From the IMG/VR virus record IMGVR_UViG_3300029070_000029: a stretch of 9,560 nt of DNA. One strand, given 5' to 3'. The notes under the pieces were generated by a model. That model was not told where the DNA came from, did no database searches, and worked only from the letters and a program-made list of their open reading frames with translations. The translations under genes and the position numbers were made by a program. Shown here piece by piece: positions 8,337 through 9,257 of this stretch. This DNA is from a virus (lineage: Duplodnaviria > Heunggongvirae > Uroviricota > Caudoviricetes). Position 1 is the stretch's first letter, and each line of letters opens with the position of its first letter.

Positions 8337-8359
8337 TCTCTACATGTGTTAAATAATGA

Positions 8360-8391
8360 AACGGGCGTATAACACGCCCGTTGTTTTATTT
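8360..8391 (+). terminator. Rho-independent terminator of icd
   Basis: 9-bp stem aacgggcgt (8360-8368) / acgcccgtt (8374-8382) with a 5-nt loop, followed by gTTTTaTTTaT. It begins 24 nt after the icd stop codon. Confidence 0.75.
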
Positions 8392-8438
8392 ATGTGGATA
8401 TTATTAATAGCATGTCGAGCATATTTATATGAAGCCCA

Positions 8439-8762
8439 TTACTTGAGTCCATATGGGCATATTTTTATAATACAACTATTATGTAAACATTTATTTGTTA
8501 TTTCGCTTTCTCCTGGAGGACACTCTTGACTGCTTTTGAGTAAAATCCATAAATCCTTGTTGAATGGTGCGATATTATAAATAGTAATAGGGTATTCTTT
8601 ATCCTTAAAGATAATACCAGATTTAACCGGTTTAAATATACTGCCAGGAGGGAGAAATATAGTAGATTGATACCAGATGATCATTTTCATATCACCCCAT
8701 ATGGCTGAAAAAGATATGCCGCATGTAGGTTGAATTATCGTGTCAATTACTATCCACTTCAT
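8439..8762 (-). CDS. iraM: Anti-adaptor protein IraM (inhibits RssB-mediated RpoS degradation)
   Basis: 107-aa [46 protein letters not shown]...CPYGLK, essentially collinear with K-12 IraM/YcgW as I recall it. AT-rich gene located immediately downstream of the icd fragment, as in K-12. Confidence 0.85.
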
Positions 8763-9206
8763 TTGTTATGTCTTATCCCACGGTGCTTAATATAGTTCAT
8801 TTGGATGTTCATTTCTTGACTTTGCATATGTGTATATTACTCCCCAAAAAACAAATTAATCAAAAATTAAAACCATTGTTTATATAAAACAAAATTTAAA
8901 GCAAGAAATCTCAATAGATATTAAACAAAATGAGATTTAGTGAAAACATTAAATTATTCACTTCGTTTTAGATTTGTTTAGCTAAAATGTTATACATTCA
9001 AATGACTGAACATCCTGTAATTAAAACATAGCCTTTATACTACTTTGTGCCAATTTGCTAAACATTATGGTTGGCCTTTTTATATAACGATAATGACGAA
9101 TATAAGCATGACATGAGAATAAGGTTTCAATTTTTTAGTTATATAGGAATGGTTTAACCCATTCCTGGCTAAAATACATATAACCGGATGATGACTAAAC
9201 CAAAAC

Positions 9207-9257
9207 ACATGTGCGTTAAGTATTGAAACGGGCGTATGGCACGCCCGTTGGTTTTAT
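9207..9257 (+). repeat. Second, diverged copy of the icd terminator module (direct repeat of 8342-8390)
   Basis: acatgtgcgttaagtattgaaacgggcgtatggcacgcccgttggtttta against acatgtgttaaataatgaaacgggcgtataacacgcccgttgtttta at 8342-8388. The same 9-bp stem (9227-9235 / 9241-9249) and T-tract are present; differences are about 4 substitutions and 3 gap positions. No + strand gene precedes it. Confidence 0.6.

What the first reader, a model, noticed from the sequence alone, without database searches (positions are those of the whole stretch)
8342..9257. About 50-bp imperfect direct repeats of the icd terminator bracket iraM
The icd terminator hairpin and its 5' flank (8342-8390) recur about 865 bp downstream (9207-9257) with the same stem, T-tract and orientation but a diverged loop and flank. 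The two copies bracket the AT-rich iraM gene and its promoter. This suggests that iraM was itself acquired as a small insertion at the icd terminator with target duplication, or that the icd 3' region has served as an att site more than once and left tandem att scars. Either way it points to a recombination hotspot beyond the known e14 att site.
Basis: seen in the sequence. Interest (0 to 1): 0.6.

Follow-up and report, generated by a model that had tools for sequence, protein, structure and literature searches.

The report
Duplicated icd terminator brackets iraM insertion
The stress-regulator gene iraM of E. coli sits in an 867-bp block bounded by two diverged copies of the icd transcription terminator, and about a fifth of E. 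coli genomes lack exactly this block and keep one copy, so it is an ordinary but neatly preserved scar of horizontal gene insertion next to a well-known phage attachment site.

Summary
Copy A (8342-8390) and copy B (9207-9257) align over about 50 nt (37 of 43 identical ungapped, z=15 against shuffles). They share the same 9-bp GC stem and T-tract and lie 867 bp apart.

Among 5,426 complete E. coli genomes, 3,848 carry both copies with iraM. Another 1,037, including known B2 strains, lack exactly 867 bp and keep one copy: copy A's left side joined to copy B's right flank.

The hairpin is not a dispersed element. Every related copy found in 185,000 species genomes lies directly after icd.

Phage 21 and e14 both carry the icd 3' end plus this terminator in their attachment regions. 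IraM homologues are accessory genes of Stx and lambdoid phages. The flank right of copy B resembles e14-type integrase arm sites.

Copy A is invariant, while copy B's stem is weakened in most sampled strains.

My best reading is that iraM and ymgK are a phage-derived module recombined into the icd terminator, and the two copies are junction scars that differed from the start.

Two things are unresolved: whether B2 never gained the block or lost it, and whether the crossover lay in the terminator or at the canonical icd core followed by deletions. This is a new example of a known kind, of modest interest.

The parts
8042..8053 (+). Phage-21-type integrase arm site (CTTTCCCCAAAA) of the resident sitABCD prophage. 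It is context, not part of the repeat pair.
   Evidence: Exact match to the consensus YYTTCCCCAAAA annotated in phage 21. The same sequence occupies the same place in phage 21.
8169..8336 (+). 3' fragment of icd (last 55 codons and stop) at the right junction of the resident prophage
   Evidence: RefSeq annotation of the identical stretch in strain NRZ14408. It is 95% identical to the icd-like pseudogene of phage 21.
8342..8390 (+). Repeat copy A: the icd terminator. It consists of the spacer ACATGTGTTAAATAATGA, hairpin 8360-8382 with loop ATAAC, and a T-tract. It is bidirectional and also ends iraM.
   Evidence: The stem is intact in 34 of 34 sampled strains, with -15 to -19 kcal/mol on both strands. 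The same hairpin follows icd in other Escherichia, Shigella and Citrobacter.
8391..9206 (.). The 816-bp AT-rich (29.8% GC) segment present only in two-copy genomes. Together with one repeat copy it forms the 867-bp indel unit.
   Evidence: It is absent, with one copy, from 1,037 genomes.
8439..8762 (-). iraM (107 aa), an anti-adaptor that protects RpoS from RssB/ClpXP
   Evidence: ORF list, RefSeq annotation and homologues. Copies 60-67% identical are found in Stx and lambdoid prophages.
8763..9020 (-). iraM upstream regulatory region, which lies entirely inside the inserted unit. It contains three weak PhoP-box-like matches at 8857-8927 and a lone TCCCCAAAA at 8841-8849.
   Evidence: The box matches are not above chance. 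The regulatory role is inferred from the literature, not tested here.
9021..9065 (-). ymgK (14 aa, MFSKLAQSSIKAMF)
   Evidence: Translation, RefSeq annotation, and detection as a small protein in K-12 (PMC6001520).
9207..9257 (+). Repeat copy B: a diverged terminator copy with hairpin 9227-9249 and loop ATGGC. It differs from copy A by a CG insertion, an A>G change and a window-specific G at 9250.
   Evidence: The stem is weakened in 30 of 36 sampled strains (K-12 type and SE11 type, about -10 against -15.3 kcal/mol).
9263..9292 (+). Right flank of copy B, which is also the right flank of the single copy in iraM-less strains. It resembles, in register, the arm-site region of e14-type left junctions (TGYTAACSGTTATCAAAAT..TATCAAAA).
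   Evidence: Local alignment at the same distance from the hairpin, z = 4.0-4.8, with 0-1 of 300 shuffles reaching the observed score.
9302..9412 (-). ymgL (36 aa)
   Evidence: Pfam YmgL, E = 7.6e-25. RefSeq annotation.
9465..9560 (-). 3' part of ycgX (DUF1398), cut by the end of the window. It is a phage-type gene.
   Evidence: RefSeq annotation. A 70%-identical homologue in E. albertii lies in a lambdoid prophage between the lysis genes and the terminase.

Best explanation
The 867-bp unit (iraM, its promoter region, ymgK and one terminator copy) is a horizontally acquired, phage-derived module. It entered, or left, the chromosome by one reciprocal crossover inside the roughly 50-bp icd terminator sequence. 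This is a Campbell-type event between the chromosomal terminator and a diverged terminator copy on the incoming DNA.

The crossover would lie in the right stem arm and T-tract (CACGCCCGTTGTTTT), 15 nt that are identical in both copies in most strains. This gives copy A as the chromosomal left half joined to module DNA. Copy A still terminates icd and now also iraM. It gives copy B as the imported left half joined to the chromosomal right flank. Copy B is redundant on the + strand and is decaying.

The reverse crossover removes exactly 867 bp and restores a single terminator, which is the state of phylogroup B2 strains.

Shown: the repeat, the exact presence/absence polymorphism, the restriction of the hairpin to icd, terminator copies carried by phages, phage homologues of iraM, and the decay of copy B.

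Inferred: the circular or otherwise recombining donor, the crossover position, and the enzyme (host or phage homologous recombination, or an unidentified integrase). Whether B2 never received the unit or lost it is open.
For: - The repeat is far above chance.
- 3,848 of 5,426 genomes have both copies with iraM, and 1,037 have one copy and lack exactly 867 bp.
- The single copy equals copy A up to the right arm and copy B from there on.
- All differences between ancestral-type B and the single copy (CG insertion, A>G, loop AA>GG) lie left of the right arm. They are shared by every B haplotype sampled.
- I estimate about 0.35 changes expected in those 25 nt from the 4 fixed differences per 290 nt on the branch between B2 and the rest in the flank. 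This argues that the copies were unlike from the start.
- There is no icd coding remnant upstream of copy B, and no integrase, transposase or other ORF in the unit besides iraM and ymgK.
- The hairpin occurs only after icd among enterics.
- Phage 21 relatives and e14-type elements carry icd 3' plus terminator copies whose homology ends at the same T-tract.
- IraM homologues are accessory genes in Stx and lambdoid phages, and the unit is 29.8% GC.
Against: - No donor has been seen. The predicted junction of B-left with A-right is absent from 5,426 E. coli genomes and from IMG/VR.
- No phage in the collection carries a B-type copy.
- Phage-borne iraM homologues share only the coding sequence and have no such hairpin beside them.
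- Fifteen to seventeen nt of perfect identity is short for RecA-dependent recombination.
- The known icd integrases cross over at the 5' edge of the icd homology, not in the terminator.
- B-type features could instead be the original host terminator (see the first rival).
- No outgroup has the same right flank, so the direction of the event is untested.
Confidence: 0.45

Rival explanations
1. Tandem att scars from canonical integration. An icd-integrating prophage carrying iraM integrated at the normal core inside icd. It supplied its own icd 3' end and terminator, which became copy A, and pushed the previous terminator downstream, which became copy B. Later deletions removed the rest of the prophage and the displaced 165-bp icd fragment, and left only iraM-ymgK between the two terminators. 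On this view the B-type sequence is the older resident terminator. The A-type single copy in B2 strains results from repeated phage-mediated replacement of the icd 3' end.
For: - Phage 21 and e14-type elements do carry icd 3' plus terminator copies.
- The single-copy site of strain D8 carries exactly the phage-21 spacer haplotype, so phage copies do overwrite the resident terminator.
- The last 171 nt of icd are 4-8% divergent, against 1.5-2% for the first 1,080 nt.
- The flank right of copy B looks like an older e14-type arm region, and ycgX is a phage-type gene.
- In lambdoid phages the iraM-like and ycgX-like genes lie in the same order and relative orientation as here.
Against: - It needs two deletions with convenient end points. 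One ends 56 nt before the iraM stop. The other removes all 165 nt of the displaced icd fragment but stops 7-25 nt before the hairpin. No icd remnant is detectable upstream of copy B.
- No phage-21-type or e14-type arm sites follow copy A.
- The lone TCCCCAAAA at 8841 is the only hint of such a site.
- No intermediate form was seen in the genomes sampled.
Confidence: 0.3
2. In-situ duplication. The host terminator was duplicated when the iraM DNA was inserted, through a staggered break, replication slippage or template switching at the hairpin. The copies were identical at birth, and copy B has since diverged under relaxed selection.
For: - Copy B is visibly decaying, with stem-breaking changes in the K-12 and SE11 lineages.
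- Hairpins are prone to template switching. The loop of copy A is inverted in strain Br_167_kylling.
- The same orientation and clean boundaries would also fit this reading.
Against: - Three to four differences are clustered in 25 nt and shared by all B haplotypes. The flank suggests only about 0.35 changes on that branch.
- Fifty bp is far longer than any transposase target duplication.
- The unit has no terminal inverted repeats and no transposase.
Confidence: 0.1
3. The two hairpins are unrelated terminators that look alike by chance or convergence, or are members of a dispersed REP-like family.
For: Short GC-rich stems with T-tracts are common. Unrelated genera have the same 9-bp stem with other loops after other genes (Mangrovibacter, Dryocola, Cedecea, Serratia).
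Against: - The similarity extends 18-20 nt upstream of the stem into non-pairing sequence (ACATGTG..TTAA.TATTGA), with z = 15.
- Only 66 stretches match the stem pattern across 185,579 species genomes. Every match of the icd type (ATAAC loop and upstream spacer) in Escherichia, Shigella and Citrobacter is directly after icd.
- The exact 867-bp indel requires homology between the copies.
Confidence: 0.02

Closest known systems
attL/attR junctions of icd-integrating prophages (phage 21, e14), which carry a replacement copy of the icd 3' end
   Same: Imperfect direct repeats of the 3' end of the icd locus flank foreign DNA. A site without the insert has one copy. The right boundary of the homology is the terminator T-tract, as in phage 21 and e14-type elements. 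The locus is the same.
   Different: The repeat is only about 50 bp and excludes the icd coding sequence and the known crossover core. There is no integrase or excisionase in the insert and no matching arm sites next to copy A. The insert is 0.8 kb with one gene and a 14-codon ORF.
Phage morons (self-contained accessory transcription units in lambdoid phages), here iraL and iraM-like genes of Stx phages and the CFT073 potB-island prophage
   Same: The gene is AT-rich and carries its own promoter region. Copies 60-67% identical lie as antisense inserts between stxB (or Q) and nanS-p in lambdoid phages. IraL is described as horizontally acquired (PMC4045071).
   Different: The chromosomal iraM is not inside any recognisable prophage. 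It is present next to an intact icd in strains with no prophage there. DNA similarity to the phage copies stops at the ends of the coding sequence.
Deletion or insertion polymorphisms bounded by short direct repeats (Campbell-type recombination or slipped-strand deletion)
   Same: Exactly one repeat period (867 bp) is gained or lost, and one hybrid copy is left.
   Different: Only one hybrid type is seen: an A-type loop in all single-copy genomes, and none with the GG loop. Recurrent slippage would be expected to give both types.

Membership tests
Intrinsic (Rho-independent) terminator | GC-rich stem, short loop, followed by a T-tract | tested here: met
   Copies A and B are both called on the + strand, and copy A also on the - strand. 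MFE is -15.3 to -19.4 kcal/mol for A and for the window's B. Phage 21's equivalent hairpin is annotated as a terminator. Termination itself was not measured.
Intrinsic (Rho-independent) terminator | Stem maintained by selection across strains | tested here: inconclusive
   Copy A has an intact stem in 34 of 34 sampled strains. Copy B is weakened in 30 of 36. The sample is dominated by two lineages, so this amounts to about two independent decay events.
Prophage/integrative-element attL-attR pair (tyrosine integrase) | Direct repeats flank the element, and an unoccupied site has a single copy | tested here: met
   1,037 genomes have one copy and lack exactly 867 bp.
Prophage/integrative-element attL-attR pair (tyrosine integrase) | Integrase (and usually excisionase) encoded within the element | tested here: not met
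   Between the copies there are only iraM and ymgK.
Prophage/integrative-element attL-attR pair (tyrosine integrase) | Arm-type integrase binding sites next to the repeats | tested here: inconclusive
   An e14-type arm-like relic lies right of copy B. Nothing lies right of copy A. One TCCCCAAAA is found at 8841, against 0.09 expected per window. The exact phage-21-type site at 8042 belongs to the resident prophage.
Prophage/integrative-element attL-attR pair (tyrosine integrase) | A free or circular form with the reciprocal (attP-type) junction exists | tested here: not met
   The B-left/A-right junction is absent from 5,426 E. coli genomes and from IMG/VR. Other collections were not searched.
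Transposon/IS target-site duplication | Short (2-14 bp) identical direct repeats, terminal inverted repeats and a transposase | tested here: not met
   The repeats are about 50 bp at 86% identity. No terminal inverted repeats bound the unit, and there is no transposase ORF.
REP/dispersed palindromic element | Many copies scattered in intergenic regions of one genome | tested here: not met
   There are 66 matching stretches in 185,579 species genomes. The S. flexneri genome has copies only at icd junctions, and all Escherichia and Citrobacter copies follow icd.
Phage moron | Homologues sit as independent units between conserved phage genes, and base composition is atypical | tested here: met
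   Homologues lie between stxB and nanS-p in Stx phages. The unit is 29.8% GC, against 47-50% for icd and sit. Own promoter activity was not tested here.

The most novel reading that the evidence does not exclude
The icd terminator hairpin itself, rather than the canonical core inside icd, is a recombination target at which small terminator-bounded gene cassettes are captured and lost. On this reading the iraM unit is a mobile cassette whose attachment sequence is a copy of a host terminator. The same hairpin also directs IS200C, which inserts at the identical position after copy A, after copy B and after the single copy. An as yet unseen recombinase or a hairpin-dependent pathway would be responsible.
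Probability: 0.1. Interest if true: 0.6.

Novelty: new member of a known kind. Interest (0 to 1): 0.3.

Why it matters
The result gives iraM a defined origin and defined boundaries. IraM is the PhoPQ-controlled protein that stabilises the general stress sigma factor RpoS. It lies in an 867-bp module bounded by terminator copies, outside e14, contrary to a statement in the literature (PMC4045071). The module is missing exactly in phylogroup B2 strains, many of which carry the phage-borne paralogue iraL instead.

This explains a strain difference in RpoS control at the sequence level. It also shows how a phage accessory gene became a chromosomal regulator while reusing a host terminator. Finally, it adds a third layer of scars to the icd integration hotspot: the resident phage-21-like prophage, the iraM unit, and an e14-like relic next to ymgL and ycgX.

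It does not reveal a new kind of mechanism.

Tried and rejected
- **Residual icd coding sequence upstream of copy B.** None was found; the score is below the shuffle mean.
- **Homology of copy A's right flank to phage 21, e14 or other left-junction arms.** None was found.
- **A donor or circular form.** The attP-type junction has no match in IMG/VR or in 5,426 E. coli genomes. B-type copies in IMG/VR are all in the same chromosomal context, where prophage calls overshoot to the end of ycgX.
- **Single-copy genomes with the B-type GG loop, as a sign of recurrent A x B deletion.** None was found.
- **Outgroup for the direction of the event.**
  - The E. albertii YcgX homologue is in a lambdoid prophage.
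  - The homologue in another Escherichia lineage (sourced to Escherichia sp. E10V10) is at the yedF locus.
  - The C. freundii bluR module is not near icd.
  - In E. albertii, Escherichia sp. MOD1-EC7003, E. whittamii and Escherichia sp. E1V33, icd is followed by prophage left junctions or their relics.
  - So no outgroup shares the right junction.
- **Local trees.** The 290-nt right flank is star-like and icd is uninformative.
- **Strain CT30.** I considered its single copy plus IS200C as a recent IS200C x IS200C deletion from a Br_167-like ancestor. The structures fit, but the flanks differ at 12 of 290 sites, so this is unproven.
- **Rfam.** Nothing reached threshold; tpke11 scored 24.7 bits against a gathering score of 43.
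- **PhoP-box and 12-mer arm-site scans.** Neither was above chance.
- **Other partial matches.** The shortened matches in strains 2012EL-2448 and ECMA0423 are IS1 events, and in O157 the region is replaced next to a prophage.
- **Supplementary tables of the IraL paper.** These hold the ECOR distribution but are not available as text.

Full report
**Context**

The window is E. coli chromosome at the right end of a lambdoid prophage inserted in icd.
- It holds a tail-fibre gene (32-2416), sitDCBA (3807-7256, - strand), an AT-rich spacer and the last 168 nt of icd (8169-8336).
- To the right come iraM (8439-8762, -), ymgK (9021-9065, -), ymgL (9302-9412, -) and the start of ycgX.
- Phage 21 has the same layout: sitA, small ORFs, an icd-like pseudogene, a terminator, three integrase arm sites (consensus YYTTCCCCAAAA), then int and xis.
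- The window's 8042-8053 matches that arm consensus exactly.
- So the icd piece in the window is the displaced host 3' end at the prophage's right junction.

- The repeat finder reports 8345-8387 against 9212-9254: 43 nt, 86% identical, 867 bp apart.
- With two small indels the match runs 8342-8389 against 9207-9257. It scores 64, against 23.9 +/- 2.6 in 500 dinucleotide shuffles, z = 15.
- Both copies hold AACGGGCGT-N5-ACGCCCGTT and a T-tract, and both are called as + strand terminators. Copy A is also called on the - strand, where it would end iraM.
- Similarity continues 18-20 nt upstream of the stem and stops at the T-tract. Upstream of copy B there is no trace of icd coding sequence.

**The decisive comparison**

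- In 5,426 complete E. coli genomes, 3,848 carry the whole 8150-9560 stretch.
- Others match it in two pieces that span 532 bp instead of 1,399. That is 867 bp less, exactly the repeat spacing.
- Read directly, these sites have one hairpin. On its left is icd and the A-type spacer and loop. On its right is the flank that follows copy B.
- A query across this junction finds it in 1,037 genomes.
- These include Nissle 1917, NU14, ATCC 11775, APEC O18 and BEN2908. From my own knowledge these are phylogroup B2 strains.
- The literature states that CFT073 lacks iraM (PMC4045071).
- The remaining genomes have other rearrangements: IS1 or IS200C events, or, in O157, a prophage with no match to the downstream region anywhere in the genome.

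**The hairpin is not a dispersed element**

- The stem pattern with any loop occurs in only 66 stretches among 185,579 species genomes.
- Every copy of the icd type (ATAAC loop and upstream spacer), in Escherichia, Shigella and Citrobacter, lies directly after the icd stop codon.
- Matches in Mangrovibacter, Dryocola, Cedecea and Serratia have other loops and other neighbours.

**Why a terminator should be duplicated here**

- Phage 21 and at least 27 related phage records carry the last 165 nt of icd plus this same hairpin. Homology with the host ends at the T-tract.
- e14 in K-12, and e14-type left junctions in S. flexneri and Citrobacter, do the same. They are followed by three GTTATCAAAA arm sites.
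- Integration at icd therefore always creates two terminator copies.
- That these copies recombine with the resident one is shown by strain D8. Its single-copy site carries exactly the phage-21 spacer haplotype.
- It is also shown by the 4-8% divergence of the last 171 nt of icd, against 1.5-2% for the first 1,080 nt.
- The sequence right of copy B, which is also right of the single copy in B2 strains, resembles the e14-type arm region at the same distance from the hairpin (z = 4.0-4.8).
- ycgX has a 70%-identical homologue inside an E. albertii lambdoid prophage, between the lysis genes and the terminase.
- So even the 'host' flank looks like an older relic of integration.

**iraM is phage-like**

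- The unit between the copies is 29.8% GC.
- Proteins 60-67% identical to IraM lie in Stx and lambdoid prophages between stxB and nanS-p. At least 45 phage records match the coding sequence at about 70%.
- The DNA similarity ends with the coding sequence, and there is no such hairpin next to the phage copies.
- iraM is not part of e14, contrary to a remark in PMC4045071. It lies beyond the displaced icd fragment, and it is present next to an intact icd where there is no prophage (SE11; 2012EL-2448).

**The two copies are not equivalent**

- Copy A's stem is intact in 34 of 34 sampled strains.
- Copy B's stem is weakened in 30 of 36: the K-12 type at -10.2 and the SE11 type at -9.9, against -15.3 kcal/mol. 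These are about two independent decay events.
- The ancestral-type B differs from the single copy only left of the right stem arm: a CG insertion, A>G, and loop AA>GG. All B haplotypes share these differences.
- The G at 9250 is peculiar to the window's lineage.
- From the 4 fixed differences per 290 nt that separate B2 flanks from the rest, I estimate about 0.35 changes expected in those 25 nt.
- The copies were therefore probably unlike from the start, which argues against a simple duplication in place.

**Mechanism**

The structure is what one reciprocal crossover in CACGCCCGTTGTTTT would give, between the chromosomal terminator and a diverged copy on incoming DNA. The reverse event gives the B2 state. 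I hold this at 0.45.

The main rival, at 0.30, is canonical integration at the icd core by an iraM-carrying phage followed by deletions. On that view copy A is the phage's terminator and copy B the older resident one. It uses known machinery, but it needs two well-placed deletions and has left no icd remnant or arm sites.

No donor or reciprocal junction was found. No single-copy genome has the GG loop, so the single-copy state in B2 strains looks like one event, not recurrent slippage.

The direction of the event (gain after the B2 split, or loss in B2) could not be settled.
- No other species shares the right junction.
- The flank tree is star-like.

**Comparison with what is known, and verdict**

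This is a junction scar of the kind left by integrative elements at the 3' ends of genes. It lies at a locus long known as an attachment site, and it surrounds a domesticated phage accessory gene.

It fails membership as a live attL/attR pair: there is no integrase and no reciprocal form, and the evidence for arm sites is inconclusive. It also fails as a transposon target duplication and as a REP element.

I found no paper describing the repeats or the exact indel.

The finding is a tidy new example of a known kind. It is useful for understanding strain differences in RpoS control, and its interest is modest.

Noticed in passing
L002 3205-3930 (strain CT30); L090 about 510-1215 and 2088-2795 (strain Br_167_kylling): IS200C is inserted at the identical position right after the hairpin T-tract (..CCCGTTGTTTTT|GTGCACAG..). 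It occurs after the single copy in CT30 and after both copy A and copy B in Br_167_kylling. The element seems to recognise this terminator as a target. Recombination between two such copies would also delete iraM.
   Followed up: partly
L090 488-510 (strain Br_167_kylling, copy A): The loop of copy A is inverted (GTTAT instead of ATAAC) while the stem is unchanged. The hairpin has been flipped, as expected from template switching at a palindrome.
   Followed up: no
L078 about 500-525 (K-12 e14 left junction); L077 about 2685-2710 (phage vB_EcoM-689R6): The terminator copy carried by e14-type elements has a different but still fully paired stem (AACGGGAGCG-loop-CGCTCCCGTT). The hairpin is kept while its sequence changes.
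   Followed up: no
L070 3206-3541; L074 2122-2457; phage records H41-H70: IraM-like genes (annotated 'anti-adapter protein', or not annotated at all) lie directly downstream of the Shiga toxin genes. They are antisense, between stxB and nanS-p, in many Stx2 phages. Shiga-toxin phages may therefore also tune RpoS stability in their hosts.
   Followed up: partly
window 8841-8849: A second exact TCCCCAAAA, the core of the phage 21 integrase arm site, lies in the iraM upstream region. About 0.09 are expected per window. It could be chance or a relic of a phage-21-like arm.
   Followed up: partly
L091 1355-1377 (K-12 copy B): In the K-12-type copy B both partners of one stem pair have changed (G-C to A/G), which breaks the pair rather than compensating. 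Strain L112 carries the intermediate with only the left change.
   Followed up: no
icd in L002, L012, L075, L079, L081 and other loci: The last 171 nt of icd differ by 4-8% among E. coli strains, against 1.5-2% for the first 1,080 nt. This fits repeated replacement of the 3' end by phage-borne copies.
   Followed up: partly
window 7257-8168 against L003 7095-9007 and L001 1095-3014: The spacer between sitA and the icd fragment is about 1 kb shorter in the window than in NRZ14408 and BEN2908, and its middle part (about 7394-7892, with ORF 7450-7689) does not match them. sitD is intact in the window but is split by IS1414 in NRZ14408. The window is therefore not from NRZ14408, although the two are identical over 8162-9560.
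   Followed up: no
window 8439-8762: A fresh Pfam scan of IraM returned no family, although the precomputed annotation of its close homologues lists PF11183 (PmrD).
   Followed up: no
L075 (O157 strain 180-PT54): O157 has an integrase-bearing prophage directly after icd, and no match anywhere in the genome to iraM, ymgK, ymgL or the start of ycgX. This lineage has lost or replaced the whole segment.
   Followed up: no
L084 5001-5405 and L070 3206-3541 against window 8439-9560: In lambdoid phages the iraM-like gene lies before nanS-p and the lysis genes, and the ycgX-like gene lies between the lysis genes and the terminase. Both are antisense to late transcription and in the same order as iraM and ycgX on the chromosome. 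The two could be relics of one prophage late region, but the terminator copy between them argues otherwise.
   Followed up: no
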